DNA of 64,000 bases from Candidatus Dojkabacteria bacterium (GTDB lineage: Bacteria; Patescibacteriota; Dojkabacteria; B142; OLB20), in the NCBI GenBank assembly GCA_030583785.1, contig CP129475.1, positions 351,559 through 415,558 on the forward strand. The letters are read 5' to 3'. The notes beneath the pieces were generated by a model. That model saw only the letters and a list, made by a program, of their open reading frames with translations. It was not told the origin of the DNA and made no database searches. Both the position numbers and the translations under genes were made by a program. Shown here one piece after another: positions 33,353 through 51,326 of the stretch; position 1 is the first letter of the stretch, and every line of letters starts with the position of its first letter.

Positions 33353-33586
33353 ATGAAAGAAGTTCTCCATTATATTCTTGCCAATATATTAGGTAATCCT
33401 GAAGCTCTCAGCATAGACCAGCAAGTTGAAGAAGATGGAACCATTGTCTTTGTTCTAAACATGGACGATGCAGATAAAGGGTTAGTTATCGGTAAAGGCG
33501 GAATGAATATTAAGTCGATTCGCAACATTATCTCAATAATTGCCAGAAGAGAGAATAAGAAAGTCTATATCAAGATTACTGATTAA
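33353..33586 (+). CDS. KH-domain RNA-binding protein (YlqC/UPF0109-like), conserved partner of rpsP
   Basis: 77 aa: LVIGKGGMNIKSIRNIISIIARR. Confidence 0.75.
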   Translation: MKEVLHYILANILGNPEALSIDQQVEEDGTIVFVLNMDDADKGLVIGKGGMNIKSIRNIISIIARRENKKVYIKITD

Positions 33587-34412
33587 TATCCGTAATTTCA
33601 TCACTACTTTCGACCTCCGAAACGCCTCCTAAAAATCTGTTTTGAAGAAAATCAACAACAACCTTACTTGGGATTACCTGCTCAGAAACGCTATTGTATG
33701 CTTGTATAGGGTCGAATGTATCACTGGTAAAAAACTGGTATTTGACTAAATTCATTTGGGCTGACCAAGACTCAAAACCTTCTTCTGTTTCCAACCTTCT
33801 GAGATTTAGTTCGTTAACAACAAAAAAATCTTCTCCTAGATAGAGGCTGGATAAGAACCTTCTAAATCCATCAATCTGACCACTTAAAGTAAACTCTGAA
33901 GGGATTCTTACTAAGAATAGCCCCGGAGCAATAGACTCTGTATTATCCGAATCTTGTTCGATTAAGACTTCTCCAAGAACTGCCGAGTCAAGTTTAACCG
34001 ACTGGTTTGCCGCCGTGTCTATGACTCTTTGTCTGAAGGTTACAACCTGAGACTGACTTGTTGGTACTATCTCGTTTATTTTAGCTAGAAGCACATCTCT
34101 TTGTGCCTGCTGTGCAGCCAAATTAGCCAATCTAGTTAACCTTTGCGACAACTTGGTATCTTTCTCTCGAAGAATATTGATTTCATCAATCTTGTAGAAT
34201 ACAGCCGAAATGTTTGGAAGAACCGTACCGACAACGATCAACAAAAATAAAAGAAAGCTTATTAAGGGTAGGGCATAGAATCTAACAGATTTCCATGTCT
34301 CCGCCCAATCAATTCGTGAGGCATCTTCATCGAAGCTAATCTCGACAAATTCGGTCTGCAGTTCACTATTGCTAGAATTTATTGAATTTTGTTCAGATTC
34401 ATTTGCTGTCAT
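33576..34412 (-). CDS. PilO-like type IV pilus assembly membrane protein
   Basis: 278 aa with a single TM helix (ALPLISFLLFLLIVVGTVL) followed by a coiled-coil. It sits immediately downstream of pilM-pilN. Confidence 0.5.
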   Translation of the reverse strand: MTANESEQNSINSSNSELQTEFVEISFDEDASRIDWAETWKSVRFYALPLISFLLFLLIVVGTVLPNISAVFYKIDEINILREKDTKLSQRLTRLANLAAQQAQRDVLLAKINEIVPTSQSQVVTFRQRVIDTAANQSVKLDSAVLGEVLIEQDSDNTESIAPGLFLVRIPSEFTLSGQIDGFRRFLSSLYLGEDFFVVNELNLRRLETEEGFESWSAQMNLVKYQFFTSDTFDPIQAYNSVSEQVIPSKVVVDFLQNRFLGGVSEVESSDEITDINQ

Positions 34413-34418
34413 GCGTGC

Positions 34419-35021
34419 TTATAAATCTTGACTAATATCTGTCTCTACGAAATTAAACCTGATCCTTCCAGAAATCTCTCTTGCTTGATCTAGAAGAGTT
34501 GGATTCTGATTAGCTACAACCATAGAAACACTTGAAACATAAACATCTTTTATGCTTTCGTTAGAAGTAAATCTTCGAGCGACCCTACTAAATGTAAACA
34601 GATCAGGGGTTCTGATCGTTACATTAAAAGTTCCATCTCTCTCTCTACCATAACCATCAATGACAATTCCTTGCTCAGGAAAAGGAAATATTTCCTCTTT
34701 TAACTGAAACAATCTGTCTGGGTTAATATCAAGTTGGACGACACTTTCAAGTGCCTGTGTTTTCTTTACTAGCTCACCGTTCTGACGAAGAATTGCAGAA
34801 TATTCAGATTCAATCCTTTTCTCCTTTTTATCGATTGCGTCTTGCCAGTTTGCTTTTACTCTGTCGACAACAAGTCCATTAAACAAAATCAATGCTAACC
34901 ACATGCACACTGCAAACAGAGGAAGGATTCCAGTATAAATGGCACTTTGATCTCTTTCTTCTTCTTTCTGAACTTCTTCTTTAGTTTTCTTTGGAAGAAG
35001 ATTGAATGTAAATGACTTCAT
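34419..35021 (-). CDS. pilN: PilN-like type IV pilus assembly protein
   Basis: 200 aa with an N-terminal TM (ILPLFAVCMWLALILFNGLVV) and a periplasmic domain. It follows pilM. Confidence 0.55.
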   Translation of the reverse strand: MKSFTFNLLPKKTKEEVQKEEERDQSAIYTGILPLFAVCMWLALILFNGLVVDRVKANWQDAIDKKEKRIESEYSAILRQNGELVKKTQALESVVQLDINPDRLFQLKEEIFPFPEQGIVIDGYGRERDGTFNVTIRTPDLFTFSRVARRFTSNESIKDVYVSSVSMVVANQNPTLLDQAREISGRIRFNFVETDISQDL

Positions 35022-35023
35022 AT

Positions 35024-36064
35024 TTATTGATTCTTAAGTGCTAGGCCGACACTAACAGAGAAGCCCACGGTTGATAATTGTGATACTTCATTAGCGATCC
35101 TGCCTGAGATCTTTAATCCAGCAATTGGATCTGTAACCTCTGCTGTAATTCCCAGATTTGTAGTCAAGAATTCTGATAGCCCTGGTAGTTTAGCGCCATC
35201 ACCTACAATATAAATTTGTCGAGGAGAGCTTTCTTGCAGATGTGCTCGAAAGTAGTTGAGAGTCTTATTAATCTCGTTGATAATAATCTGCATTACAGGG
35301 GTAAGGGACTGCAGAATTTTACCTTCGGCAACATTCGCTTGTATACCATAGGTTCTTTTATACTGCTCTGCCTGTGAATATTCTAGATTGAAATCAGAAG
35401 CGATAGCTTTTGTTAAGGCATCAGAACCTGTTCCCAAGCTTTGAGAGAAGATTGGATACTGACCTTTGATCACGCTTAAATCAGTACCTCCAGAACCAAA
35501 ATCTATAACAAGAATACTGTCTTGTCCAGGTCTATTAAAGGTTAAGGCCCTTGCTGTGGCCATTGTTTCTGTCTCAAGGGCGATCAGTTCCAAGCCTGCC
35601 AAAGAGAGAATATCCATGTACTTGGCTACAATATTTTTGGGGGCCGCCACCAGCAAAGCTTGAATTAAATCTCTACCTTCGACATTCTTTTTTGCTATGG
35701 GAATATAATCCAACTGCACTTCGTTTGGTGGAATAGGAAGGTACTGCTTGGCTTCATAAAAAAGTGATTGTTCAAGTTGATCTTCTGGTAAATCTGGGAG
35801 AAGAATCAGCCGAGTAAATATTGAAGCTTCTGGCATAGCAGCAACTACATATTTTGTCTCGATCTTGGCAGCTTCTCGGGCTTGTTTAATCTTTTCTACA
35901 AGTTGTTTTTTTGTATTATCATCTTGTACACCAGCCATTCCCAATGGGGTATCAATGCTTCCTATAGAGACTAGTTCGGCATCGCTAACGCCTTTAACTT
36001 TAGCTTGCGCAATCTTGATTGTATGATTTCCAATATCCAGTCCAAAAAATTCAGGCAGATTCAT
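35024..36064 (-). CDS. pilM: Type IV pilus assembly protein PilM (actin-like ATPase fold)
   Basis: MNLPEFFGLDIGNHTIKIAQA...ILVIDFGSGGTDLSV...QIYIVGDGAKLPGL. The ATG is at 36064; the track ORF extends to a TTG at 36118. Confidence 0.8.
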   Translation of the reverse strand: MNLPEFFGLDIGNHTIKIAQAKVKGVSDAELVSIGSIDTPLGMAGVQDDNTKKQLVEKIKQAREAAKIETKYVVAAMPEASIFTRLILLPDLPEDQLEQSLFYEAKQYLPIPPNEVQLDYIPIAKKNVEGRDLIQALLVAAPKNIVAKYMDILSLAGLELIALETETMATARALTFNRPGQDSILVIDFGSGGTDLSVIKGQYPIFSQSLGTGSDALTKAIASDFNLEYSQAEQYKRTYGIQANVAEGKILQSLTPVMQIIINEINKTLNYFRAHLQESSPRQIYIVGDGAKLPGLSEFLTTNLGITAEVTDPIAGLKISGRIANEVSQLSTVGFSVSVGLALKNQ

Positions 36065-36183
36065 GAGCAGTTTATTAACTTCATAACTAATAATAAGTAC
36101 AGTCAGAATATTTCGCAAGTTTATTCAAACTTATTATCATGGTATTAACTTGCAAGCTTGCTAACAATCGACAATAATGTGTT

Positions 36184-36768
36184 ATGCGAAATCAATCTGC
36201 TCCAATAATTGCATTTGTCCTAAGCCTAATACTTGCGATTTACGCAGTTACGAGCTACATAATTGCTCTCGAAAACCAGAACCTGGCCGACAGAATAGCA
36301 GGAGATAATAACAACTCTAGTGAAAAGCTGATTAATTCGAATGCGGAAGAATCTGTCTTTTATCATTCTCTCTCAGGTAAAGTCATCTCGATTTCCAGCA
36401 ACTCAGATTTGCTTTCCAAGAGTTCCGACCCGGATAAAATAGACCAAGCAGAAGCCATCTTCACTGATCTTACAATTGAATCAGAAGATGGTTTAGAGAC
36501 AATAAAAGTTGAAAAGAATAATCCAGATAGTTTAGGGAACCTGTACATAATCGATTGTGCTCAAGTCGAAAAAGAGAATTGTGAATTTTCAGAGCAAATT
36601 ATTAATGCCAGTGAACAAACTCTTGTCGAAATGCGTCTTGGTGTTTTCCCTGGTATCAGGTTAGCATCCGTAGACGAACTCAAAATCGGAGAACATCTAT
36701 TAGTTATTGTTTCAAGAAAAGAAACCCTAAATATGAACGATTACAAATTCATAATTAAAAGATCATGA
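36184..36768 (+). CDS. Hypothetical protein with an N-terminal TM helix, possibly pilus-associated
   Basis: 194 aa: MRNQSAPIIAFVLSLILAIYAVTSYIIALENQ. It lies divergent from pilM, inside the T4P locus. Confidence 0.5.
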   Translation: MRNQSAPIIAFVLSLILAIYAVTSYIIALENQNLADRIAGDNNNSSEKLINSNAEESVFYHSLSGKVISISSNSDLLSKSSDPDKIDQAEAIFTDLTIESEDGLETIKVEKNNPDSLGNLYIIDCAQVEKENCEFSEQIINASEQTLVEMRLGVFPGIRLASVDELKIGEHLLVIVSRKETLNMNDYKFIIKRS

Positions 36769-37307
36769 ACAAACTATTTCTGTTGATAACACTAATTCTA
36801 ACGGTTTTTTCCGTAGCAGTATTAGTCTATACGAGACAATTAGTTTTTAACACCGACTCAGAACCAAAATTTAATGCAGGTTTTTGCTTAAGTAGTATTC
36901 CAGAAAGCTGTATCGCGAAATATTCCAGCAAGGGAATTATTAGAAACGACAAGTTAGTTATTAATAATCAAGAACTCACAATCAGCTCAACAGAAAACCC
37001 TTTTCTTGGTAAGCTAGAAGAGAACTCATTCGTCAAAGTACTCATGAACACAACAACAGAAGATCAGGATGAGATTCTACAAGAAGTAGATATTCGCTCA
37101 TTAAATACAGTTGCGAATTTTGAAAAGTGCGTAGACATTACTGCTAGCTATTATAAAAAAGGATCTTTTTCTATCGCAATCGGTGACTCAATTGCAGAAC
37201 AGATTAATTCCTTAATCATTCTGACAGAGTGTGATCAATTAGAAACCGATCTGTCTTTAAATCTTGAAGAATTTGTATCTATTACTAAAGTTCTAAATGA
37301 AGATTAG
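36765..37307 (+). CDS. Hypothetical protein with an N-terminal TM helix, possibly pilus-associated
   Basis: 180 aa: MNKLFLLITLILTVFSVAVLVYTRQ. It overlaps its neighbours by 4 and 11 nt. Confidence 0.5.
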   Translation: MNKLFLLITLILTVFSVAVLVYTRQLVFNTDSEPKFNAGFCLSSIPESCIAKYSSKGIIRNDKLVINNQELTISSTENPFLGKLEENSFVKVLMNTTTEDQDEILQEVDIRSLNTVANFEKCVDITASYYKKGSFSIAIGDSIAEQINSLIILTECDQLETDLSLNLEEFVSITKVLNED

Positions 37308-39903
37308 ATTCATTGCTCTAATCATTGTCTCAATATTCTTTTTCCTTTATCAAACAGAAGATGTAGAGGCTGCAATATCATATAACGGTGGTTGGTATAC
37401 AAACCTCTGTGGAACTGGCAGTGCAGCTACAGCCTATTCATGTCCAGCAAGTTGTAACCCCAATAGTGGTAGCTGTTCTGGAACATGGGTAGTAAAATTC
37501 ACATGCGGTGGAAGTGTCACCGAGTGTAGGAGTAATGAAAGCGATGGTTCAACATTCCATTCATTTGACGCCTTAAATAACCAGACACAACAAATTGATG
37601 TATTTGATAGAAACTGCAGACCAAATGGTAGAGGCAATGCCCCTTGGGCGTGTGGACCAGAAGCACTTAGAGGTTACATGGTCTGGTATCATCCCTCAAG
37701 GTGTACTAATAGCTGTACAAATTCTAATCCAACTGCACCCTCACTCGGTTCTCCGGCAAATAATGCGAGACTTGCTACTAATACTGTAACCCTTACATGG
37801 TCACATAGCAACTGGGGAGGTTGTGGAGGTAACAGCTGTGCTGGAGGATGTTCGGCTACAACACCAGGAAGATACAGGCTAAGAATTTATGGGCCCGACC
37901 CTCGTGATGTTTACCTTGCAGGGAATGTCAGATCTTATACTGTAGTTCTTAGCGGTCAAAGTCATAGCTGGACGGTTCAAGCAATAAACAGATGCAGCAG
38001 AACTGCTACCTCTGGAGTTCGTTCTTTTACTATTAATAGACCGCCAACAACAACCGCCAACATCGTAAGTAATGAATTATGTTTAAGTAATAATTTGTCT
38101 TCTGGCTGGTCTGGAATTCATGAAACAAGAGCCCTTGAAGGTAGAAAGGGGATCAATAATCCGTTGCGTGTTAATGCTATCTATAGCGATGCCGACGGAG
38201 CATCGACACTTCAATACATGCTTATCCGTTATGGTAATACTGCTAATTCGACTGCCTCCAAGCTTGCTTCTGCCGATTTAATTAGACAAGGAGCATTAGG
38301 CACTATATGGCAAAATTCAGGTATTTATCGACTTTATTACCAAGGAGGAACCAACAACAATAATAATGCTCAAATCGGTAATGGAGATGCGATATGCACT
38401 ATGGCAGGTAGTGCGATCCAAGTTCCTTGCAATGTCGCAAACATACCCGACCAAGCAATAGCATATGCCTATCCCAGAATAATTCGACCTGCAACTGCAG
38501 CAGAAACGAGTCAACCAGGGTCTTTGTTTGTGGAATGGGAATTAGGTTTCTTAAACAATTCTGTATTCAACGGCAATGGAATCCTTCATAGTTACGCAGC
38601 AGACAACCTAAGCGTTAATAGTGGTTATGTAGCTCAGGGGAACTGGAGAACAGACCTTATTGCACCTTCTTCAACAACTAATAGCCAAATAATATCGAGA
38701 ACAGCAATAAGTGTGGGTTATCAAGCCACAGATAATAACTCGATACTTGCAAATCAAAAGACATGTAGAACCAATATCAATCAAGGGAATCAAATCATTC
38801 GTTTGACTCAAACAAATCCATTAATACCAACACCACTCGAATTCCCAACGGCGAACACAAGCTTTACGCCATGTTTTGATAATAATTTAGGAAACTACAA
38901 TTATTCGCTGAATGAACCCCCAAATGACGGAACACTCGAATTTCTAGTCGAATCAACAGATATAGCTTGCAATTCAACGCTGTCAAACACTTCATCGATA
39001 CGACTGAAACAACCTTGGATGGTATCTTTTGAAGGAGATCTTTACTCAAGGAATGGCTTAAGGCAAACATCGATATCAGATATTAATGAAATGCGAAGCA
39101 CATACCTTGCAGAATATAACGGTCAGATACCATACATTTCTGGCTATAGTTTCATGCAAAGGTTAAATTCGAATGTTAGTCGCGCATCCAAATTAAACTT
39201 TAGGTTGAATAATTACGAAGATCTAAACTCGAAACCAAGAGCAACAACAGGATTTGCAAATTGGTTCGATTATGTTTCCGCATCAGTTGATGCTATTTCA
39301 GCTAATCGAACAACATCGTTTAACGGAGATCAAAGTTTTACAGGCTCTACAAATCTAGTAGGCGAGACTCCAACTAATGGTTTCCCTGGCAGTCTTCCAT
39401 CTGAGAGAGTAAACCTTGTCCGAGTAAATGGGGATTTAACTATCAGCAATCTTGTATGTAATACCAAAACAATCTTTCTAATTAACGGAAACTTGCAGGT
39501 GGAACCTAATGTGACAATACAAGACAACCCCATTAGCGGAATAGTAAATGGTTGTATGTTTGTTGCCAGTGGCAGTATAAATGTATTAGAAGGAAACGAC
39601 GCAGCAGGTGGAGCCGACACGGGCACAAACACCGCCTACGATGATGTTTACGGCTTCTTTCTAGGTGAGAGTTTTACCACTCAGGCAGATACGAACTTTA
39701 ATGGTTTACGGATTAAAGGTTCAGTTATTGCGGAACTAGAAAATAATTTAAACAGAAGCAACGGAATAGTTCTCAATCAATTTGCGCCTGCAGAAATATT
39801 TATTTATGATGGCGGTAGATACATAGGCTTATTCGGAGATATTCTAAGTTCTCCACTTAATTATAATATTGCAGAGAAAGGATTCCTTGATGCCCTTGAT
39901 TAA
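37297..39903 (+). CDS. Large secreted Cys-rich protein, paralog 1; candidate pilus-associated adhesin
   Basis: 868 aa. It has a signal peptide (MKIRFIALIIVSIFFFLYQTEDVEA) and an N-terminal Cys-rich module of about 200 aa. The C-terminal half is collinear with the next gene (GINNPLRVN; EWELGFLNN; NLVCNTKTIFLINGNLQVEPNVTIQDNPISGIVNGCMFVASG; IYDGGRYIGLFG). Confidence 0.7.
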   Translation: MKIRFIALIIVSIFFFLYQTEDVEAAISYNGGWYTNLCGTGSAATAYSCPASCNPNSGSCSGTWVVKFTCGGSVTECRSNESDGSTFHSFDALNNQTQQIDVFDRNCRPNGRGNAPWACGPEALRGYMVWYHPSRCTNSCTNSNPTAPSLGSPANNARLATNTVTLTWSHSNWGGCGGNSCAGGCSATTPGRYRLRIYGPDPRDVYLAGNVRSYTVVLSGQSHSWTVQAINRCSRTATSGVRSFTINRPPTTTANIVSNELCLSNNLSSGWSGIHETRALEGRKGINNPLRVNAIYSDADGASTLQYMLIRYGNTANSTASKLASADLIRQGALGTIWQNSGIYRLYYQGGTNNNNNAQIGNGDAICTMAGSAIQVPCNVANIPDQAIAYAYPRIIRPATAAETSQPGSLFVEWELGFLNNSVFNGNGILHSYAADNLSVNSGYVAQGNWRTDLIAPSSTTNSQIISRTAISVGYQATDNNSILANQKTCRTNINQGNQIIRLTQTNPLIPTPLEFPTANTSFTPCFDNNLGNYNYSLNEPPNDGTLEFLVESTDIACNSTLSNTSSIRLKQPWMVSFEGDLYSRNGLRQTSISDINEMRSTYLAEYNGQIPYISGYSFMQRLNSNVSRASKLNFRLNNYEDLNSKPRATTGFANWFDYVSASVDAISANRTTSFNGDQSFTGSTNLVGETPTNGFPGSLPSERVNLVRVNGDLTISNLVCNTKTIFLINGNLQVEPNVTIQDNPISGIVNGCMFVASGSINVLEGNDAAGGADTGTNTAYDDVYGFFLGESFTTQADTNFNGLRIKGSVIAELENNLNRSNGIVLNQFAPAEIFIYDGGRYIGLFGDILSSPLNYNIAEKGFLDALD

Positions 39904-42379: not shown

Positions 42380-42399
42380 ATAATTTATCAGAATATATT

Positions 42400-43317: not shown

Positions 43318-43323
43318 TAGCAA

Positions 43324-43953: not shown

Positions 43954-44513
43954 TGACTTGATCCTCCGGTATTTCGATAACCAATAATTTCGTTTCTACT
44001 GATTCCTTTTGATGTCTGGTAGTAAATAATTGAGCGAATCTCAAAGCTGTTTCCTGCAGTTTGCTGTAAAAGTATTTGATTACATACCAAAAAGTCTGGG
44101 AAATCCCTTAATACAACACGGTACTCAGAAGAATCGCTGCAAGTATCAATGACATCAGCCTGATCCATTTGTCTTAGAGTTGTGAGATTTGGGTTCTCGG
44201 TGTCAATCTCTGAACTTACCGAGAAAGCAAACTCTCTTCTGCCTGCGGTAAGCTGATTCAGCACAGGAACTGCAGCAGGGGATTTCATGTATTCCATCGA
44301 TCCTACCATCACTGCATTTGCCGTATCGGCCAGCTCATTATCTTTTACTGTTCTTAGAGAACCTATGGCCAAAGACACTGTAGCAATCATTGCTGTTGCA
44401 AAAATAGCAATTGCCACAATAATCTCAACGAGACCAAACGCATTTCTAGATTGTTGGTTGTTATATTCTTTATTCATTCTCAACGATACCAAATGAATTC
44501 TGGACTGATTCAA
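43950..44513 (-). CDS. Type IV prepilin-like minor pilin
   Basis: ...NKEYNNQQSRNA|FGLVEIIVAIAIFATAMIA. The second Met (position 44477) would give a 13-aa leader. Confidence 0.65.
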   Translation of the reverse strand: MNQSRIHLVSLRMNKEYNNQQSRNAFGLVEIIVAIAIFATAMIATVSLAIGSLRTVKDNELADTANAVMVGSMEYMKSPAAVPVLNQLTAGRREFAFSVSSEIDTENPNLTTLRQMDQADVIDTCSDSSEYRVVLRDFPDFLVCNQILLQQTAGNSFEIRSIIYYQTSKGISRNEIIGYRNTGGSSQ

Positions 44514-45078
44514 CCTTAATAGTATTCTCGGCTCCGGACTGTTTATGTCTAACCTTTAGAACACAATCATCTTCAAAAAAAGTAATGTTATTTGAATTAG
44601 CAGTTCCGGTTGCTACCTTTATGTCTCCAGTTAAATTTTCAAAAAGGACATTCCTACAAATTGGGTTTGCTCCACCTTGAAGTACATATTCTATTTGCGT
44701 TGAAATGGCTGGAGATTTTAGAGATACACGAGTGTCAATTGTTCCATTGGAGCCATCATTACATATCCAGTTTGAATTCGAGCTAGATGTGCTTCGAGAG
44801 CATAAAGTGCGAACCATATCGTCTTCTAAAAATGTGATATTGTAGGCGTAGATTGTTTGTTGACCAGGAGAGCTTCCAAGAATTAAGTCTTTTGGCAATG
44901 TATTGTTTTTAGCTAAACTTCGAGTTTCTTTCATAATGATAATAACCTCGTTTACTGATTGTCCGAATTCGATACTTCTTCGAAATGACAGAAAGCCCCA
45001 GATTCCCAAGGTAGCCGTGATACCTACGATCGCCATAATTACAATCAATTCAATCAGACTAAATCCAGATCTTTTCAA
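44470..45078 (-). CDS. Type IV prepilin-like minor pilin
   Basis: 202 aa: MKRSG|FSLIELIVIMAIVGITATL, a canonical G-F-x-L-I-E class III signal. Confidence 0.75.
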   Translation of the reverse strand: MKRSGFSLIELIVIMAIVGITATLGIWGFLSFRRSIEFGQSVNEVIIIMKETRSLAKNNTLPKDLILGSSPGQQTIYAYNITFLEDDMVRTLCSRSTSSSNSNWICNDGSNGTIDTRVSLKSPAISTQIEYVLQGGANPICRNVLFENLTGDIKVATGTANSNNITFFEDDCVLKVRHKQSGAENTIKVESVQNSFGIVENE

Positions 45079-45130
45079 GATTAATTACCTAAGTTATCTA
45101 ATACTAGATAGTGCAAGTTAGCATGTCAAA

Positions 45131-45901
45131 TTAGCTCAACTGAAGTATTTCGATAAAGAGAAAAGCAACGGACCCGAAGTAAAGAATTGTTGCTAAAGGA
45201 ACAATTGTGCTTAATCCACCACCTTTAATCATTTTAATTGCTCCCCAGCACAGACCAACAACACAACTAATAAAAAACACTTCGAGAAGTCTTGATGAGA
45301 AAACTAGGGCTAAAGAAGCAACAATTAATACATCAAGCGAACCGACCTTTGTTATTGGAATCCGGGATAAAACAAATGTTCCAATTGAAGCTATTAACAA
45401 AGTGATAACCATTTGATCGACAGAGCCTATAGGATTATTTGATCCAAAAAAGTTAATTACTGCAGCAAGACCCGCAATGAATAGAATCACAATTGTTAAG
45501 TTCTTTGGAATGCTGAAGTATAAGTAGTCATAAACTGCTATGGCAAGAAAGAGAGTGAAGTAACTTGTGTAGACGATAAAAGGTAGCCAAATATGAGGCT
45601 CTGTGGGATCGTAGAATCGCCAAGATATAATAAGTAGACCACTTGCACTTAATAACTCAATAATGGGGTAGAGGATCGACAACTTCTCTCCATTTGTTCG
45701 ACTTCTGCCATGAAAAATCACAAAAGAAATGATTGGAATTAAATCTATTGCTGCTAATGGCTTGCCCGTGGCATCAGCAAAAGACCTGCCCCCCAAGGGT
45801 ATATTATGCCGAACTCTATACACCAGCATATTTACAAAGCTCCCAAGACAAGCACCTAAACCAAATATCAGTAGATTAAGGATGATTAGATAGAGCTGCA
45901 T
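45131..45901 (-). CDS. pilD: Prepilin peptidase (A24 family, PilD/GspO)
   Basis: 256-aa polytopic protein: LGACLGSFVNMLVYRV... and multiple TM helices. It is adjacent to the pilins. Confidence 0.7.
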   Translation of the reverse strand: MQLYLIILNLLIFGLGACLGSFVNMLVYRVRHNIPLGGRSFADATGKPLAAIDLIPIISFVIFHGRSRTNGEKLSILYPIIELLSASGLLIISWRFYDPTEPHIWLPFIVYTSYFTLFLAIAVYDYLYFSIPKNLTIVILFIAGLAAVINFFGSNNPIGSVDQMVITLLIASIGTFVLSRIPITKVGSLDVLIVASLALVFSSRLLEVFFISCVVGLCWGAIKMIKGGGLSTIVPLATILYFGSVAFLFIEILQLS

Positions 45902-45968
45902 AAGGCTTGATATACAAATAAAATAACAAAACTGGGGCCATTAGCCCCAGTTAAATCTTCTGTTAGTC

Positions 45969-46466
45969 TTAGTTTGATCTTGGTTCACAGGTTGTTGTTG
46001 ATGTACCAGCCTGATGAACATCACCATTTTCAAGTCTTACCGCTAACGAGTAACCATCTGTCTGCGACTCAAAACACCATTGGCTACTGTCTGTAGAGGT
46101 TGTGTTTCCGGCTAATAAAACTCCAGAACTTCCTCCGGAAGCAACAGGACCATCAATAACTGCTGCACCTTTTAGAGGTATAAGAACACATTTATCAGCT
46201 GCTGTGCAATTTGCCTTTGATTGTGCCAAAGTAGGGGATATAATTACGGAATCATCTTCAAATTTGATCGACCTTGGAAAAGCTTGTGTAAGATTTAAAT
46301 AATCAGCGATCCCGGCATTAATATCCTCTGCCGCAGCTCTTCTGGCAACATCGCGTGCATTTCTTTGTGCAGCTGCTATACCAAAAAGAGACAACCCGAT
46401 CAGAATTCCAATGATTGCCATCGCAACTAAAAGCTCAACAAGGGTGAAAGCCTTCTTTTTTTGCAT
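45969..46466 (-). CDS. pilA: Type IV major pilin (PilA-like)
   Basis: 165 aa: MQKKKA|FTLVELLVAMAIIGILIGL, with a C-terminal Cys pair (CTAADKC...CFESQ...CEP). Confidence 0.75.
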   Translation of the reverse strand: MQKKKAFTLVELLVAMAIIGILIGLSLFGIAAAQRNARDVARRAAAEDINAGIADYLNLTQAFPRSIKFEDDSVIISPTLAQSKANCTAADKCVLIPLKGAAVIDGPVASGGSSGVLLAGNTTSTDSSQWCFESQTDGYSLAVRLENGDVHQAGTSTTTCEPRSN

Positions 46467-46485
46467 GATTTAAATTATGAAATAA

Positions 46486-47703
46486 TTAAACTATGTTTGC
46501 TACATTATAGATTGGCAGATAAACAGCCACAGCTAATAATGCAACTAAACCACCTACTATTAAAAGAATAAGAGGTTCCATAAGCTTTGTCAAATTGCTT
46601 GTGATTTCTTCAACCTGATCTTCGTAAAATCTAGCTAAATCACCCAATATCTTATCTAAAGCTCCTGTCTGTTCACCTGTTGAGATCATTTTTAGAACTA
46701 TTAGCGGCACTACTTTGTTTCTGCCTAATGGTCCTGCAATTTGTTGTCCTTTCGATACTTCTTGAGCAGCATAGAACAAAGCCAATTTGAAGTGAATGTT
46801 TTTTAGTGCCTTACCAGTCGCTGTCAAGGCATCAATTATTGGAACTCCGCTTTTAATCAACATCTGTAATAATCTGACCATTTGTAAGACTTGTGATTTT
46901 GCTTGCAGGTCGCCAAAGACTGGAACTTGCAGAAGCAGTTTGTCAATAAATTTCCGTCCTGAATCGGTTTTATAATAAGCACGAAATCCGAGAATCGTGC
47001 TGGTGACGGTTACAAAAGTTATTAATAATCCTAACGGATCGCTAAAGAAATTACTTATTGTAACCAAGGCCTGAGTTATTGCAGGTAAATCACCACCGCC
47101 TAGATCGGCGTAGAGATCTTCAACCGCAGGAATCATAAACACTACCAGTACTAACACAACAATGATTATTGCCAGAAATATTACAGCCGGATAGATCATC
47201 GCCCCACGAATTTTTCCGTTTATTTGTGCCGTTTTTTGTAAATCCTCGGCAATCTGCTGAATAATCTCGACTAGATTTCCCGATTTCTCTCCGGCATCAA
47301 TAAGACTCAGCTGTAGATCGTCAAATATTGCCTTGTTTCTTCCGAAGGAGGTCGCCAAAGGCAGTCCTGATTGAATATCTTTATAAACTTGAGTAAGTTG
47401 TTTTTTTAATCCAGTGTATTTTGTTTGCTCTACTAGAATTTCTAGCGAACTTGCAACTGGCAGACCAGCAGAGAGCATTGTTGCTAACTGCCTTGCGAAA
47501 ACAACTTTTTCGTTAAGCGGAATTCCTCCAATCTGGATATCGTTTAAGTTGCCAAGATTTAAACCAATCTTTTGATTAATGGAGATAATAATTAACCCCT
47601 GTTCGTGAAGAAACGAAGCAACATCTTCTCTGGTTTGAGCCTGCCTTTCGCCAGTTACTTGTTCACCAGTAGCCTTTGTTGCTGTATATGTGAAGACTGC
47701 CAT
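46486..47703 (-). CDS. pilC: Type IV pilus platform protein PilC (GspF family)
   Basis: 405 aa with two GspF-type repeats and three TM segments. Confidence 0.8.
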   Translation of the reverse strand: MAVFTYTATKATGEQVTGERQAQTREDVASFLHEQGLIIISINQKIGLNLGNLNDIQIGGIPLNEKVVFARQLATMLSAGLPVASSLEILVEQTKYTGLKKQLTQVYKDIQSGLPLATSFGRNKAIFDDLQLSLIDAGEKSGNLVEIIQQIAEDLQKTAQINGKIRGAMIYPAVIFLAIIIVVLVLVVFMIPAVEDLYADLGGGDLPAITQALVTISNFFSDPLGLLITFVTVTSTILGFRAYYKTDSGRKFIDKLLLQVPVFGDLQAKSQVLQMVRLLQMLIKSGVPIIDALTATGKALKNIHFKLALFYAAQEVSKGQQIAGPLGRNKVVPLIVLKMISTGEQTGALDKILGDLARFYEDQVEEITSNLTKLMEPLILLIVGGLVALLAVAVYLPIYNVANIV

Positions 47704-49496
47704 TAATTAGATTTTAACAAACTTAATAACTCATCGGGTTTAGCTGTATAGTTTTGAGCAGCCTCTACAGTCAAGTCGCCTGAGCGAATTAGTTTAACCA
47801 AGGATTTTTCAAGTGTGATCATCCCAAGTTCAGCACTGGTTTGAATCATATTGTCTATCTGATAAGTTTTCCCCTCTCTAATTGCATTCTTTATTGCTGC
47901 ATTGGCAATCATGATCTCTAAAACTGCTTTTCTACCTCCTCTTTGAACCGGTACCAATCTTTGTGCCACAACTGCCGAAATAACATTCGCAAGCTGGGCC
48001 CTAATTTGCGCCTGCTGTGCATCTGGAAAGACATCAATCATTCTGTCTATACTTTGCGCAGCAGAATTGGTATGTAGGGTAGAGAAGACTAAATGACCTG
48101 TTTCAGCGACTGTAATAGCCGAAGCAATTGTTTCGAAATCTCTCATCTCACCAACAAGAACAACATCAGGGTCTTCACGAAGAGCTGCACGGAGTGCTCT
48201 GCTGAAACTTTTAACATCTGTTCCGACTTCTCTTTGATCAACTAGTGATTTTGCTCTTGGAAATACATATTCGATAGGGTCTTCAATTGTAATTATATGT
48301 TTTGCCTCGTTAATATTTATCTCCTGAATTATCGAAGCTAGAGTTGTACTTTTACCATGTCCAGTTGGACCAGTAACTAACACAAGACCATGAGGTAGTT
48401 TGGCAAAATCATAGATAACATCTGGAAGACCAAGCTCAGCAATAGTTCTAATTCTGGAAGGAATTAATCTAAATGCTCCAGCAAGTTGTTCCTTTTTATG
48501 ATAAATGTTAACTCTAAACCTGGTTCCGCTCTGAATACTATGCGAGAAATCAATATCTAGATCTGCCTTCAAGGCTTCTTGCTGTTCTGGTGTCAAAATC
48601 GACTCAAAAAGCTCTCTAACTCTTTCGAGTTGCATAATCTGATTACCGATAGAAATCAGTTTGCCGTCAACCCTAAGCATTGGTGGATAACCGGTTGAAA
48701 TGTGCAAATCAGAAGCATTTTTTTCTTCGGCATAGGCAAGAAAATCGTCCATCTTAGCTTTCTGAGCATAGTAATTCTCGCTTGCATCTGCAGGTTTAAG
48801 TGAATCAATTTGTGGAGAAGGTGTTGGAACCGCCTGCTTAGACTCTACAAGTTCATCAGCTTTCTTAAATATTTCCTCAACTGTCTCAGTCTGCTTTGCG
48901 GCACTCCCTGTAAGCTCTATGCCTCCCTGATTTAGGCTTGGAAGTGATTCCTTTATTTCCGGTTGCGGTGATGGGACTGTCACATTTGTCGATTCAGTAT
49001 TATCTGACATTTGATTCAAATTAGCAGGAGCTTCTATGGGTTTAAGTTGTTCAGGCACCTCGTTTTTAATTGTTGGAACTTGAGGGACTACTGGACTGGT
49101 AGAAGAGAAAGGTGATGTTGATGAACTCTGTGCAGTTTCTACAGGTGCCTCGGTTTTATTGACATTGCTATCTAAAGGTTTTGCTAGGTTCAACTCGCCC
49201 ATACCCAGGTTTTGAGTTTCTGCTTGTGGAATTTCTCCTGGTTGCATACTGGGAGCGGGAGTATCATTAAATTGAAACACTGTCTCTTTTGGTAGTTCTG
49301 TAAGAATCTCTGGGGCTGCCGATAATAAATTATTTGTAGTACTTGTATTGTTTAAACCTGGCTGATTTGGTTGCTGTACCGGTTGCACAGGCATACTTGC
49401 TGCTGTTGAAGGTGGCAAATTTGGCATTTGCCCAGCAGGGGGCTGAGTAGGATTTGAATTTGGTTGCTGCGGACTACTTAAATCAATGAAGGGCAT
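47703..49496 (-). CDS. pilT: PilT-type retraction ATPase with an N-terminal low-complexity extension of about 250 aa
   Basis: 597 aa. The C-terminal 340 aa is a PilT core (MDDFLAYAEEKNASDLHISTGYPPMLRVDGKL; VTGPTGHGKSTTLASI; LREDPDVVLVGEMRDFETI...TGHLVFSTLHTNSAAQSIDRMIDVFP). The N-terminal segment is rich in P/Q/S/T/N. Confidence 0.8.
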   Translation of the reverse strand: MPFIDLSSPQQPNSNPTQPPAGQMPNLPPSTAASMPVQPVQQPNQPGLNNTSTTNNLLSAAPEILTELPKETVFQFNDTPAPSMQPGEIPQAETQNLGMGELNLAKPLDSNVNKTEAPVETAQSSSTSPFSSTSPVVPQVPTIKNEVPEQLKPIEAPANLNQMSDNTESTNVTVPSPQPEIKESLPSLNQGGIELTGSAAKQTETVEEIFKKADELVESKQAVPTPSPQIDSLKPADASENYYAQKAKMDDFLAYAEEKNASDLHISTGYPPMLRVDGKLISIGNQIMQLERVRELFESILTPEQQEALKADLDIDFSHSIQSGTRFRVNIYHKKEQLAGAFRLIPSRIRTIAELGLPDVIYDFAKLPHGLVLVTGPTGHGKSTTLASIIQEININEAKHIITIEDPIEYVFPRAKSLVDQREVGTDVKSFSRALRAALREDPDVVLVGEMRDFETIASAITVAETGHLVFSTLHTNSAAQSIDRMIDVFPDAQQAQIRAQLANVISAVVAQRLVPVQRGGRKAVLEIMIANAAIKNAIREGKTYQIDNMIQTSAELGMITLEKSLVKLIRSGDLTVEAAQNYTAKPDELLSLLKSN

Positions 49497-49520
49497 AGTT
49501 TTATATTAAAAAAATTATAT

Positions 49521-51326
49521 TTAACTGACAACTCTAAGTACTTCTTCGATAGTTGTTACACCTTCCATAGCTTTCAAGTAACCATCTTGCATCATGGTGA
49601 TCATTCCTTCTTTTACGGCAATCTTTTCTATCTCTTGTGCTGATGAATCTACAACCGTTAAAGAAGCAATACCTTCTGACATTTTCATTACTTCAAAGAT
49701 TCCGATTCTGCCTTTATAACCACTGTCACCACATTGAGGACAACCTTTCCCTTTGTTTAAAAATATCTTACCACCATTTTTTTGCAAGATCGAGTCAATA
49801 CTAAAACCGTTAATCTGTTCCAAAACTGTTTTAAGTTTATTAATTTCTTCTGGACTAGCTTCATATGAATATCTGCAGTTATCGCAGATTGTTCGAACTA
49901 ATCTTTGTCCGGCAGCTAGTTCAAGAGTAGAGGAGAGTAAGAAGGGCTCAATACCCATATCTTTAAGTCTTGGGATTGCTCCAGCAGCAGAATTGGTATG
50001 CAAAGTGGCAAGCACAAGATGCCCTGTAAGCGATGCCTGCACAGCTAATTCTGCAGTTTCTTTGTCACGAATTTCTCCAACGAGTATGACATCTGGGTCT
50101 TGTCTCAGAAAGGCCCGAAGTCCTTTGGCGAAGGTTAAGCCAACTTCGCTATTAACTTGAACTTGAGTGACTCCATCGATACGAATCTCGACTGGGTCTT
50201 CGAGTGTCATAATATTGATTTCGGGACTATTAATAATTTTAAGAGCACTGGCAAGAGTCTGGGTTTTTCCACTTCCTGTAGGACCTGTTACAAGCAAGAT
50301 ACCTTGTGATTTTTTAATTGCCTGCTGAAATAGTGCAAGACCTCTGCCTCGCATACCTGTTTTATCAAGCGTTAGGGTTCCTCCTCCTTTTGCAAGAAGC
50401 CTAATCACAACTTTTTCTCCATAGACCGATGGCATTACAGAAACACGGAGGTCAATTAATTCATTCTCTACTTTAATTTGAAATCTGCCGTCCTGAGGAA
50501 CACGATGTTCATCTATTTTTAGATTAGATAAGATTTTAATTCTTGAAACAACAGGACCAGCAAGCTTAACCGGTAGAGTTAGCTTCTCTTGCAAAACACC
50601 ACTAACACGATACCTAACTACTACTTTGTTTTCTCTAGGTTCAATATGAACATCAGAAGCCTTGTATTTTGCAGCGTATTCAAGAATCATATTCACAATT
50701 CTTGCAACAGGTGCTGCAGCAATATCACCTTGAATTTCTGCAGAGGCTATCGTGCCGGTAATTTCGACTACATCTCCAACATCTTGTAGTGCCTGGGTAA
50801 CTTCTGACCCGATCTGAGCACCATACTTGGTATCGATTATGCTTTTTATAATGCTTGGATCAGCAAAATAAGGTTCGATTCTTTTTCCAACTACTGTCGA
50901 CAAGAAACGGATTTTTTGCAGATCTAAAGGATCTGCCATAGCTACCTTAAGCCCAACTTCAGTGTTCTCAAAAGCGACAGCAGAGTTTTGCTTGGCAAGT
51001 TTTTGATTTAAGAGGTTGAGAGTTTCGATGTCAATTCTTTGCGCGGCAAGGTCTACGAAAGGGATTTGAAACAACTTTGATTTCGCTTTAGCTAAATCAA
51101 GTTCAGAAATATACCCACCCTGAAGTAGAATCTGCTCAATGGGCTTGCCTGTATTCACAGATTCAAATTTTACCTTCTTTAAAGATTCGGTGTTTAGAAG
51201 CCCGAGTGAAAACAATGAATCGGCCAGATTCACCTGTTGTGATGTATTAAGAGCATTGTTGTTTACGGGAGGCGCTTGTTGCTGTAATATATTACCACCT
51301 ATAGCCCCATTATCTGAATTTGCCAT
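49521..51326 (-). CDS. pilB: Type IV pilus assembly ATPase PilB (GspE family)
   Basis: 601 aa with an N-terminal GSPII_E N domain, Walker A (LVTGPTGSGKTQTL), GEIRDKETAELAVQASLTGHLVLATLHTN, and a tetracysteine motif (CDNC...CPQC). Confidence 0.85.
   Translation of the reverse strand: MANSDNGAIGGNILQQQAPPVNNNALNTSQQVNLADSLFSLGLLNTESLKKVKFESVNTGKPIEQILLQGGYISELDLAKAKSKLFQIPFVDLAAQRIDIETLNLLNQKLAKQNSAVAFENTEVGLKVAMADPLDLQKIRFLSTVVGKRIEPYFADPSIIKSIIDTKYGAQIGSEVTQALQDVGDVVEITGTIASAEIQGDIAAAPVARIVNMILEYAAKYKASDVHIEPRENKVVVRYRVSGVLQEKLTLPVKLAGPVVSRIKILSNLKIDEHRVPQDGRFQIKVENELIDLRVSVMPSVYGEKVVIRLLAKGGGTLTLDKTGMRGRGLALFQQAIKKSQGILLVTGPTGSGKTQTLASALKIINSPEINIMTLEDPVEIRIDGVTQVQVNSEVGLTFAKGLRAFLRQDPDVILVGEIRDKETAELAVQASLTGHLVLATLHTNSAAGAIPRLKDMGIEPFLLSSTLELAAGQRLVRTICDNCRYSYEASPEEINKLKTVLEQINGFSIDSILQKNGGKIFLNKGKGCPQCGDSGYKGRIGIFEVMKMSEGIASLTVVDSSAQEIEKIAVKEGMITMMQDGYLKAMEGVTTIEEVLRVVS

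What the first reader, a model, noticed from the sequence alone, without database searches (positions are those of the whole stretch)
33576..51326. Complete type IV pilus locus split by a plus-strand insert of five exported proteins, including two ~850-aa Cys-rich paralogs
The minus-strand T4P genes are pilB, pilT, pilC, pilA, pilD and three minor pilins (45078-43324), plus pilM-pilN-pilO-like (36064-33576). They flank five co-directional plus-strand genes (36184-43317). All five have N-terminal hydrophobic segments but lack class III prepilin motifs. The two big paralogs share long collinear C-terminal blocks (for example CNTKTIF..G.L...PN..I.DNP.SGI.NGCMFV) and have N-terminal Cys-rich modules that differ. 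This location is where PilY1/PilC-type tip adhesins sit in other systems, so these are candidate pilus-tip or host-binding proteins of a new family.
Basis: partly seen in the sequence, partly recalled or inferred. Interest (0 to 1): 0.65.

Follow-up and report, generated by a model that had tools for sequence, protein, structure and literature searches.

The report
Pilus-locus adhesin family in an ultrasmall bacterium
[quoted passage not shown] This makes them good but unproven candidates for how these epibionts grip their hosts.

Summary
The genes are real and sit at the stated coordinates. The window comes from a Candidatus Dojkabacteria (WS6, CPR) genome.

PilM, PilB, PilT, PilC, PilD, PilA and three GspH/I/J-like minor pilins were confirmed with profile searches. 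PilN and PilO are assigned only by position, topology and one weak GspM hit.

The plus-strand block is not an insert. The same arrangement recurs in 8 further independent loci.

Its last gene (305 aa) is not a plain exported protein. It has an invariant "G|QIL…" N-terminus without Glu5. In one relative it follows minH-minI-minJ on the same strand. It is therefore most likely the GspK/PilX-type cap pilin.

The two paralogs of about 850 aa (35% identical, E=7e-134) share one architecture:
- a Sec signal peptide
- a variable Cys-rich head
- an FN3/Ig stalk
- a constant C-terminal domain of about 300 aa with no Pfam, NCBIfam or PDB sequence match

That C-terminal domain defines a family of about 416 clusters. 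Heads in other members are lectins, CBM60, VWA or Kelch domains. The model (pLDDT 83.5) is a β-solenoid. Its best, weak, matches are the tip pilin ComZ and ice-binding proteins.

The adhesin reading is well supported. The pilus-tip reading is plausible but unproven, because 6 of 15 family contexts show no pilus genes nearby.

The parts
33576..34412 (-). PilO-like bitopic protein (278 aa)
   Evidence: Lies last after pilM and pilN and has a single TM segment. It gives a weak GspM hit, E=9.6e-4. Homologs sit at the same position in L001, L002 and L007.
34419..35021 (-). PilN-like bitopic protein (200 aa)
   Evidence: Assigned by position and topology only, with no family hit. It is conserved in L001, L002 and L007.
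35024..36118 (-). PilM (the likely true start is the ATG at 36064)
   Evidence: Pfam PilM_2, E=4.9e-44, covering the full profile.
36184..36768 (+). s1: small bitopic membrane protein (194 aa), function unknown. First gene of the plus-strand operon.
   Evidence: Has one N-terminal hydrophobic segment and 2 Cys. No family hit. Weakly conserved counterparts occur in L001, L002 and L007. It is not PilN- or PilO-like by hhalign.
36765..37307 (+). s2: small bitopic membrane protein (180 aa), function unknown. It overlaps s1 by 4 nt and the first large paralog by 11 nt.
   Evidence: No family hit at a curated threshold.
37297..39903 (+). First large paralog (868 aa, 'BIG1'). Signal peptide (aa 1-25), Cys-rich head (about aa 26-140), FN3/Ig-like stalk (about aa 145-560) and constant C-terminal domain (aa 570-868).
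   Evidence: Identical to NCBI QY330_01860 of Candidatus Dojkabacteria. The head is shared with PKD/DUF11 surface proteins P0004 to P0006. The stalk matches FN3 arrays with Foldseek E down to 1e-8.
39004..39900 (+). Constant C-terminal domain of the first large paralog (aa 570-868). Predicted β-solenoid with flanking helices and a conserved tail that is predicted disordered.
   Evidence: AF2 model from 24 sequences: pLDDT 83.5, pTM 0.85. It defines a family of 416 clusters. No Pfam or PDB sequence hit. The best Foldseek hits are ComZ (6qvi) and DUF3494 ice-binding proteins, all with E>0.05.
39869..42379 (+). Second large paralog (836 aa from the TTG; the more likely start is the ATG at 39890, giving 829 aa = P0007, 'BIG2'). 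It has a different Cys-rich head and the same stalk and C-terminal domain (about 41438-42376).
   Evidence: 35% identical to the first paralog, E=7e-134. It matches the C-terminal profile with E=1.4e-86.
42400..43317 (+). Probable GspK/PilX-type cap minor pilin (305 aa, 'K-like')
   Evidence: N-terminus with invariant G-Q-I-L and no Glu5. It is 59% identical to its OLB20 homolog, whereas the large proteins are only about 37% identical. Three of 5 family members give weak ComGE minor-pilin hits. In L014 the homolog (E=1e-50) follows minH-minI-minJ on the same strand. There is no Pfam PilX_N hit.
43324..43953 (-). Minor pilin, GspJ/PilW-like
   Evidence: N_methyl E=9.4e-7. Best-scoring named pseudopilin model is gspJ.
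43950..44513 (-). Minor pilin, GspI/PilV-like
   Evidence: gspI E=1.7e-4 and a weak PilV hit. Weak N_methyl hit.
44470..45078 (-). Minor pilin, GspH/FimU-like
   Evidence: N_methyl E=1.5e-5. gspH E=1.6e-4.
45131..45901 (-). Prepilin peptidase PilD (divergent)
   Evidence: A24_N_bact E=1.2e-17. The Peptidase_A24 domain itself is not detected.
45969..46466 (-). Major pilin PilA
   Evidence: N_methyl E=9.6e-9. A strong hairpin with a T tract follows at 45952-45930.
46486..47703 (-). Platform protein PilC
   Evidence: T2SSF domain twice, E=6.5e-53.
47703..49496 (-). PilT-type ATPase with a long low-complexity N-terminal extension
   Evidence: T2SSE E=2.5e-46, confined to the C-terminal part.
49521..51326 (-). 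Extension ATPase PilB
   Evidence: T2SSE E=1e-130 plus MshEN.

Best explanation
The region is one vertically inherited type IV pilus locus of a monoderm-like CPR bacterium. It is organised as three transcription blocks: pilM-N-O on the minus strand, s1-s2-BIG1-BIG2-K on the plus strand, and pilB-T-C-A-D-minH-minI-minJ on the minus strand. BIG1 and BIG2 are the two large paralogs, and K is the 305-aa protein.

K is the fourth core minor pilin, the equivalent of GspK or PilX. It lacks Glu5, so it would cap the filament. Together with the H-, I- and J-like pilins it would form the priming or tip complex.

BIG1 and BIG2 are exported by Sec, and their signal peptides are removed by signal peptidase I. 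They are oxidatively folded, modular adhesins. A variable Cys-rich ligand-binding head sits on a stalk of FN3/Ig-like domains. A constant C-terminal β-solenoid domain of about 300 aa follows. Its conserved, disordered tail ends in 'YD-x-RY…SIRE'.

My inference is that this constant domain docks onto the K-capped minor-pilin complex, much as PilY1/PilC docks on PilX and PilW, or as the solenoid of ComZ and cyanobacterial PilX sits on the tip. The pilus would then present one of several interchangeable heads to the host cell surface, and PilT-driven retraction would pull the epibiont onto its host. Copies encoded elsewhere in related genomes ('orphans') would be alternative tips.

Shown here: gene identities, paralogy, domain architecture, family size, conserved adjacency to K, and the solenoid prediction.
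Inferred: export route, disulfides, docking on the tip, host binding, and the role of s1 and s2 (possibly membrane-bound assembly or holding factors).
For: Conserved arrangement. The order s-s-BIG-K followed by the convergent minor pilins, PilD, PilA, PilC, PilT and PilB is seen in the window and in L001/L003, L002, L004, L005, L007, L008, L012 and L014. It is flanked by the same housekeeping genes: rnc and rpsP on one side, holB and gyrB on the other. The base composition shows no anomaly.

K as cap pilin. The N-terminus 'G|QIL' is invariant and has no Glu5. There are weak ComGE and PilV hits. L014 shows a co-directional H-I-J-K order. K is conserved more strongly than the large proteins, 59% against about 37% identity.

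The large proteins as adhesins. In homologs, AxA-type cleavage sites lie directly before the conserved head module. The stalk is FN3/Ig-like. Heads in 51 relatives include CBM60, C-type lectin, Laminin_G_3, Kelch, VWA and Toxin_R_bind_N. The BIG1 head is shared with unrelated PKD/DUF11 surface proteins.

The constant domain. The profile search found 416 clusters, and the match reaches the protein C-terminus in 125 of the 150 listed. The model has pLDDT 83.5. The top Foldseek matches are ComZ and DUF3494 β-solenoids. That fold is described at pilus tips in Thermus (PMC6561018) and cyanobacteria (bioRxiv 10.64898/2026.02.12.705559).

The large gene is adjacent to K even where K has moved to the other strand (L014). 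Pilus-embedded and orphan copies intermix in a rough tree. Large non-canonical tip adhesins are documented in another CPR lineage (PMC11623550).
Against: - No direct evidence ties the large proteins to the pilus.
- Six of 15 contexts have a family member with no pilus gene and no K-like gene within up to 10 kb: L006, L009, L010, L011, L013 and the P0132 locus. Two of those contigs are only 6-7 kb long.
- The structural similarity to ComZ and ice-binding proteins is weak (E 0.06-1, TM about 0.3). It may reflect only a generic β-solenoid.
- There is no sequence similarity to any solved structure.
- K has no PilX_N or GspK profile hit, and its fold was not predicted.
- The full-length model is poor (pLDDT 54).
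- The tree has no support values.
Confidence: 0.5

Rival explanations
1. The large proteins are cell-envelope adhesins, not pilus-borne ones. After Sec export they stay on the cell surface, held by the constant C-terminal domain (binding to the wall or S-layer) or by the small bitopic partners s1 and s2. They are merely co-located and co-regulated with the pilus genes, as proposed for the tāpirins of Caldicellulosiruptor.
For: Family members occur without nearby pilus genes in 6 of 15 contexts. There they still travel with a small bitopic membrane protein encoded just upstream: the L009 and L011 pairs, with a tandem small-large-small-large arrangement in L011. The large proteins lack any pilin segment. 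Tāpirins are β-helix adhesins encoded beside a pilus locus (bioRxiv 10.1101/359786).
Against: Adjacency to the cap-pilin gene holds in 9 of 9 pilus-embedded loci, including one where K lies on the other strand. There is no recognisable wall-binding, sortase or membrane-anchor signal in the constant domain. One relative carries a separate SLH domain, which suggests the constant domain is not itself the wall anchor. The small proteins are poorly conserved and are not homologous between the two context classes.
Confidence: 0.3
2. The proteins are pilus-tip DNA receptors for natural competence. In this reading the C-terminal β-solenoid binds DNA, as reported for ComZ, and the pilus mainly serves DNA uptake in this reduced genome.
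For: ComZ is the top structural match, and it binds DNA at the tip of the competence pilus (PMC6561018). CPR pili are discussed in connection with DNA uptake (PMC6744442).
Against: The match is weak. Variable lectin, CBM, VWA and Cys-rich heads and tandem paralogs with different heads fit recognition of diverse surface ligands better than recognition of one invariant ligand, DNA. No competence genes (comEA, comEC) were seen in the stretch examined.
Confidence: 0.08
3. The proteins are secreted enzymes. In this reading the β-solenoid is a polysaccharide lyase or depolymerase that attacks the host envelope, targeted by the N-terminal binding modules.
For: β-helices are common in lyases and tailspikes. 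The domain has conserved acidic and basic residues (Y212-D213, R251, D269, E291). One member gave a marginal K1-lyase_C hit, E=0.014.
Against: Pectate lyase and tailspike structures match far worse than ice-binding-type solenoids (E>1.8, TM about 0.14). There was no meaningful match in the viral library. No catalytic family was detected in any of the 24 members scanned.
Confidence: 0.07
4. The plus-strand block is a horizontally acquired insert or mobile island, unrelated to pilus function, that happened to land in the pilus locus.
For: It has the opposite orientation to both flanks, and none of its genes has an annotated function.
Against: G+C is 0.37-0.41, like its surroundings. No integrase, transposase or repeat signature was noted in the ORF lists. 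The same arrangement is present in at least 8 other, divergent loci. It contains the cap-pilin-like gene that completes the H-I-J-K set.
Confidence: 0.03

Closest known systems
PilY1 (Pseudomonas, Myxococcus) and PilC1/PilC2 (Neisseria): non-pilin tip adhesins of type IVa pili
   Same: A large Sec-exported non-pilin protein, encoded next to the PilX-type cap pilin. It has a variable N-terminal binding region (VWA in PilY1, and VWA in one family member here) and a constant C-terminal domain thought to dock on the minor-pilin complex. There are multiple paralogs with different heads, some encoded away from the pilus genes, as with Neisseria pilC (my own knowledge).
   Different: No PF05567 hit was found. 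The constant domain is predicted to be a β-solenoid, not a seven-bladed β-propeller. The stalk is made of FN3/Ig domains, and the heads are disulfide-rich.
ComZ (Thermus thermophilus) and cyanobacterial PilX: cap pilins with an inserted ice-binding-protein-like β-solenoid
   Same: A β-solenoid of the ice-binding type associated with the tip of a type IV pilus in an organism that lacks PilY1. ComZ is the top Foldseek hit for the C-terminal domain. The literature is PMC6561018 and bioRxiv 10.64898/2026.02.12.705559.
   Different: In ComZ and PilX the solenoid is inserted into the pilin fold of a single polypeptide. Here the pilin-like part (K, 305 aa) and the solenoid (the C-terminus of a Sec-exported adhesin) are separate gene products. 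The similarity is weak (E=0.06, TM about 0.3) and there is no sequence similarity.
Tāpirins of Caldicellulosiruptor
   Same: Secreted proteins with a β-helix C-terminal domain and no family annotation, encoded beside the type IV pilus locus of a monoderm, mediating attachment (bioRxiv 10.1101/359786).
   Different: The structural match to tāpirin 4wa0 is negligible (E=3.9, TM 0.13). In tāpirins the β-helix itself binds cellulose. Here the β-solenoid is the constant part and the heads vary.
PilX1 and PilX2 of Nanosynbacter lyticus TM7x (Saccharibacteria)
   Same: A CPR lineage whose pilus loci encode large proteins with non-canonical signal peptides and accessory domains (jelly-roll, β-propeller). 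These are proposed, and for PilX2 shown, to promote host binding (PMC11623550).
   Different: Those proteins are described as pilin-like, with a 'lollipop' architecture. The large proteins here have no pilin helix. Homology was not tested because no TM7x sequences were available to me.
GspK, PilX and ComGG: cap pseudopilins that lack Glu5 (relevant to the 305-aa protein)
   Same: Gly at position -1, a hydrophobic N-terminal helix without Glu5, a size of about 300 aa, and a position after H-I-J in L014.
   Different: No GspK or PilX_N profile hit. It has Gln at +1, which is unusual in bacteria. In most loci it is transcribed with the adhesin genes rather than with H-I-J.

Membership tests
PilY1/PilC (Pfam PF05567, Neisseria_PilC) | C-terminal PilY1-type β-propeller domain detectable by profile search | tested here: not met
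   No PF05567 hit at E<=0.1. The model of the C-terminal domain is a β-solenoid with flanking helices, and no propeller appears among the Foldseek hits.
PilY1/PilC (Pfam PF05567, Neisseria_PilC) | Non-pilin protein with a Sec signal peptide, encoded beside the core minor pilins | tested here: met
   No N_methyl motif. A single N-terminal hydrophobic segment is followed by AxA-type sites in homologs. The gene is adjacent to the K-like gene in 9 loci.
PilY1/PilC (Pfam PF05567, Neisseria_PilC) | Physical presence at the pilus tip, or a requirement for piliation or adhesion | not testable with these tools
   Needs proteomics, imaging or genetics.
ComZ / cyanobacterial PilX (solenoid-bearing cap pilins) | Type IV pilin fold with an N-terminal hydrophobic α1 helix in the same polypeptide as the solenoid | tested here: not met
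   The large proteins have a short signal-peptide-like segment followed directly by a Cys-rich module. They have no pilin motif.
ComZ / cyanobacterial PilX (solenoid-bearing cap pilins) | Triangular β-solenoid of the ice-binding-protein type | tested here: inconclusive
DUF3494 / ice-binding proteins (Pfam) | Profile match to the family | tested here: not met
   None of the 24 C-terminal domains hit it at E<=1.
Tāpirins | Structural similarity to the tāpirin C-terminal β-helix (PDB 4wa0) | tested here: not met
   4wa0 ranks 33rd, with E=3.9 and TM 0.13.
Type IV pilins (class III signal peptide; Pfam N_methyl / TIGR02532) | G/A|F-x-x-x-E motif, tested for s1, s2 and the two large paralogs | tested here: not met
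   No hit, and the sequences lack the motif.
GspK/PilX/ComGG-type cap minor pilin (for 42400-43317) | Prepilin-like N-terminus with Gly at -1, a hydrophobic helix and no Glu5 | tested here: met
   'KG|QILVIVLLVLSILG' is present, with G, Q, I and L invariant in 5 homologs and no acidic residue at +5.
GspK/PilX/ComGG-type cap minor pilin (for 42400-43317) | Encoded as the fourth gene after the H-, I- and J-type minor pilins | tested here: met
   This holds in L014. In the window and 7 other loci it is convergent with, and abuts, the J-like gene.
GspK/PilX/ComGG-type cap minor pilin (for 42400-43317) | Profile match to GspK, PilX_N or ComGG models | tested here: not met
   No such hit. There are only weak ComGE hits (3 of 5 members, best E=0.006) and one weak PilV hit.
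GspK/PilX/ComGG-type cap minor pilin (for 42400-43317) | Pilin fold of the globular part | not tested

The most novel reading that the evidence does not exclude
Dojkabacteria, and probably other CPR lineages, use a two-piece pilus tip. A dedicated Glu5-less cap pilin (with Gln at +1) forms one piece. The other piece is a family of Sec-exported adhesins whose constant ice-binding-protein-like β-solenoid plugs onto that cap. In other words, the ComZ/PilX architecture would be split into two genes. The solenoid-bearing partner could then be swapped among tandem and orphan paralogs that carry different lectin, VWA or Cys-knot heads. These paralogs would be the host-range determinants of the epibionts.
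Probability: 0.3. Interest if true: 0.75.

Novelty: new variant of a known kind. Interest (0 to 1): 0.55.

Why it matters
CPR/Patescibacteria are a large share of bacterial diversity and live attached to other microbes. Outside a few Saccharibacteria, how they recognise and hold their hosts is largely unknown.

This locus offers concrete candidates:
- A previously unannotated family of about 400 sequence clusters of modular exoproteins, with interchangeable binding heads and one constant domain.
- A missing cap pilin that completes the core minor-pilin set in this class.

If the constant domain docks on the pilus tip, the family would be a direct handle on host specificity. Head type could be compared with host type across metagenomes. 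It would also show a third structural solution for a pilus tip adhesin, beside the PilY1 propeller and the solenoid inserted in ComZ and PilX.

If the proteins are instead wall-bound adhesins, they still mark the host-contact surface. Either way the annotation of these loci improves.

Tried and rejected
- A word-indexed homolog search with the 24-sequence C-terminal profile returned only one weak hit. A single-sequence search found only 6 proteins. The exhaustive profile search was what revealed the family.
- Pattern-based locus searches found only 2 loci among reference genomes and 1 among metagenome contigs. The 24-sequence alignment was too diverse to give search patterns. Contexts therefore came from exact-protein look-ups, and all 12 were used.
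- The full-length model from 4 sequences was poor (pLDDT 54). It was used only for the FN3/Ig stalk.
- I asked whether s1 and s2 are extra PilN- or PilO-like proteins, are related to each other, or are related to the small partners of orphan copies. hhalign probabilities were at most 13%, so this was rejected.
- Promoter and terminator scans were not above chance.
- Taxon names for distant family members were mostly unavailable. I therefore cannot state how far beyond Dojkabacteria the family extends.
- The mobile-insert reading was rejected on synteny and base composition.


Full report
**What is there**

The window belongs to a Candidatus Dojkabacteria (WS6, CPR/Patescibacteria) genome. The 868-aa protein is identical to NCBI QY330_01860, from a 1.17-Mb contig.

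All ORFs in the finding exist at the stated coordinates. On the minus strand:
- Pfam identifies PilM, PilB (T2SSE plus MshEN), a PilT-type ATPase, PilC and PilD.
- Pfam also identifies prepilin motifs in PilA and three minor pilins.
- NCBIfam ranks the three minor pilins as GspH-, GspI- and GspJ-like, in that gene order.
- The two genes after pilM are bitopic proteins assigned as PilN and PilO by position. One of them has a weak GspM hit.
- There is no secretin, as expected for CPR (PMC6744442).

The locus lies among housekeeping genes: rnc on one side, and holB, gyrB and gyrA on the other. The base composition is flat across it.

**The plus-strand block**

Five genes run from 36184 to 43317. 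The first four overlap each other's ends, and the fifth follows after a 20-nt gap, so they look like one operon. Each product has a single N-terminal hydrophobic segment. None reaches a curated threshold in Pfam or NCBIfam.

The two large proteins are clear paralogs: 35% identity over 807 residues, E=7e-134. The quoted CNTKTIF…NGCMFV block is present in both. The first 210-250 residues are unrelated between them. They have 22 and 24 cysteines, concentrated in those heads.

**Correction 1: it is not an insert**

Exact-protein look-ups and locus searches recovered the same arrangement in eight further independent loci: L001/L003 (WS6 OLB20), L002, L004, L005, L007, L008, L012 and L014. The arrangement is pilO-N-M on one strand, then small-small-large-(about 300 aa) on the other, then convergent minor pilins, PilD, PilA, PilC, PilT and PilB. 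Where the flanks are visible they carry the same housekeeping genes. This is an inherited operon layout.

**Correction 2: the fifth gene is a pilin**

The N-terminus of the 305-aa product, 'KG|QILVIVLLVLSILG', has G, Q, I and L invariant in five homologs and no acidic residue at +5. The protein is conserved much more strongly than the large proteins: 59% against about 37% identity to the OLB20 homologs. Three of five family members give weak hits to the ComGE minor pilin, and one to PilV.

The strongest evidence comes from L014. There the homolog (E=1e-50 to the family profile) lies on the same strand directly after the H-, I- and J-like genes. This reproduces the canonical GspH-I-J-K and FimU-PilV-PilW-PilX order.

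I therefore read it as the Glu5-less cap pilin. There are caveats. It has no PilX_N or GspK profile hit, no PDB sequence hit, and its fold was not predicted.

**What the large proteins are**

An exhaustive profile search with the shared core found 416 clusters at 50% identity (252 with E<=1e-10). The last 300 residues or so, and above all the last 165, are the universal part. In 125 of the 150 listed proteins the match ends at the C-terminus.

N-termini across the family are signal-peptide-like, followed by variable and mostly Cys-rich regions. In relatives of the first paralog, AxA-type sites sit immediately before the conserved 'SY-x-GG-x-YTN-x-CG' head. That same head also occurs on unrelated PKD/DUF11 surface proteins with C-terminal anchors.

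A scan of 51 full-length members found CBM60, C-type lectin, Laminin_G_3, Kelch propeller, VWA, Big_7, fn3, SLH and a toxin receptor-binding domain in the variable parts. The middle of the first paralog is predicted as tandem β-sandwiches that match FN3 arrays and the adhesin SiiE.

This is the architecture of a modular adhesin: interchangeable head, stalk and constant base.

**The constant domain**

A model built from 24 diverse sequences is confident (pLDDT 83.5, pTM 0.85). It shows a run of short parallel strands forming a solenoid, flanking helices, and a strongly conserved C-terminal tail that is predicted disordered.

No member hits any Pfam family, and the profile hits no PDB sequence. 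Foldseek against PDB gives no significant match. The list is, however, headed by ComZ of Thermus thermophilus and by about fifteen DUF3494 ice-binding β-solenoids. Pectate lyases, tailspikes and the tāpirin 4wa0 score far worse. The viral library adds nothing.

ComZ is a GspK-like tip pilin with an inserted solenoid of the ice-binding type (PMC6561018). Cyanobacterial PilX proteins have the same design and are proposed to replace PilY1 as a tip plug (bioRxiv 10.64898/2026.02.12.705559). The resemblance is suggestive but weak, and I treat it as a lead.

**Linkage to the pilus**

Of 15 family contexts examined, nine are pilus-embedded. In all nine the large gene abuts the K-like gene, including L014, where K is on the other strand.

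Six contexts show no pilus gene within the available flanks: L006, L009, L010, L011, L013 and the P0132 locus. Two of those contigs are only 6-7 kb long.
- L006 and L009 follow rplS-rnhB.
- L009 and L011 pair each large gene with a bitopic protein of 222-237 aa, and end with a cupredoxin-like protein.
- At least one orphan cluster is also labelled Dojkabacteria.
- In a rough neighbour-joining tree, orphan and embedded copies intermix.

It is also what one would expect of alternative tip adhesins encoded elsewhere, as with Neisseria pilC (my own knowledge). The data do not decide between these.

**Most likely mechanism (confidence about 0.5)**

The H, I, J and K pilins form the priming or tip complex. 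The large proteins are Sec-exported, disulfide-stabilised adhesins whose constant solenoid domain docks on that complex and presents a variable head. Retraction by PilT then pulls the cell onto its host. CPR enrichment for extracytoplasmic thiol-disulfide oxidoreductases fits the Cys-rich heads (PMC6744442).

The small proteins s1 and s2 are poorly conserved bitopic proteins. They are not related to PilN or PilO, to each other, or to the small partners of the orphans. Their role is unknown, and a membrane-bound holding or assembly function is a guess.

**Rivals**
- Envelope-bound adhesins that are only co-located with the pilus genes, like tāpirins (0.3).
- A ComZ-like DNA receptor (0.08).
- A β-helix depolymerase (0.07).
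- A foreign insert (0.03, effectively refuted).

**Comparison with known systems**

Functionally the closest are PilY1/PilC. However, the defining β-propeller and PF05567 match are absent, so these proteins are not members of that family. They are not ComZ/PilX-type pilins either, because the solenoid protein has no pilin segment. They are not tāpirin homologs. In Saccharibacteria, large non-canonical pilus proteins (PilX1 and PilX2) are the candidate host adhesins (PMC11623550), but those are described as pilin-like.

I class the finding as a new variant of a known kind: an undescribed adhesin family linked to the type IV pilus, together with an unrecognised cap pilin.

**Limits**

Noticed in passing
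window 25674-27665 (+); also L007 1-1096: A tyrosyl-tRNA synthetase (tRNA-synt_1b, aa 287-575) carries an N-terminal B3_4 domain (aa 67-191). That domain type forms the editing site in the PheRS β subunit. The same fusion appears in a second Dojkabacteria-like contig.
   Followed up: no
window 45969-46466, 43950-44513 and 43324-43953 (all -): PilA and two minor pilins have Ala, not Gly, at position -1 of the prepilin cleavage site (KKA|FTLVELL, RNA|FGLVEII, IKA|FSLVEML). Only the GspH-like pilin and the K-like protein have Gly.
   Followed up: no
window 45131-45901 (-): The prepilin peptidase matches only the N-terminal A24_N_bact domain. The catalytic Peptidase_A24 domain is not detected at E<0.01, although relatives in L008 and L014 show it at least weakly.
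   Followed up: no
window 47703-49496 (-): The PilT-type ATPase has a low-complexity N-terminal extension of about 240 aa, rich in Pro, Gln, Ser and Thr, ahead of the ATPase core.
   Followed up: no
window 45952-45930 (-): A 10-bp GC-rich hairpin followed by a T tract lies directly after pilA and before pilD. This would fit attenuation after the major pilin gene. Overall terminator counts in the region are not above chance.
   Followed up: no
window 20861-25438 (+) and 10544-12616 (-): Two large ORFs (1525 aa and 690 aa) have no Pfam match at E<=1e-5.
   Followed up: no
L001 5258-7848 and 10001-14350: In WS6 OLB20 a second copy of the large gene is split into a 302-aa ORF (the Cys-rich head) and a 531-aa ORF (the core). 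This could be a frameshift, a pseudogene or an assembly error. The intact copy (P0003, 1449 aa) has an insertion of about 460 aa inside the C-terminal domain.
   Followed up: partly
L009 13177-13581 and L011 5709-6116: Orphan copies of the large gene are followed by a conserved protein of 134-135 aa with a weak cupredoxin hit (58% identical between the two loci). They are preceded by homologous bitopic proteins of 222-237 aa. L011 has a tandem small-large-small-large arrangement.
   Followed up: partly
window 37372-37716 (aa 26-140 of the 868-aa protein): The Cys-rich head module ('SY-x-GG-x-YTN-x-CG…') also forms the N-terminus of otherwise unrelated CPR surface proteins with PKD or DUF11 repeats and C-terminal membrane anchors. 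One of these is labelled Pacebacteria. This indicates module shuffling.
   Followed up: partly
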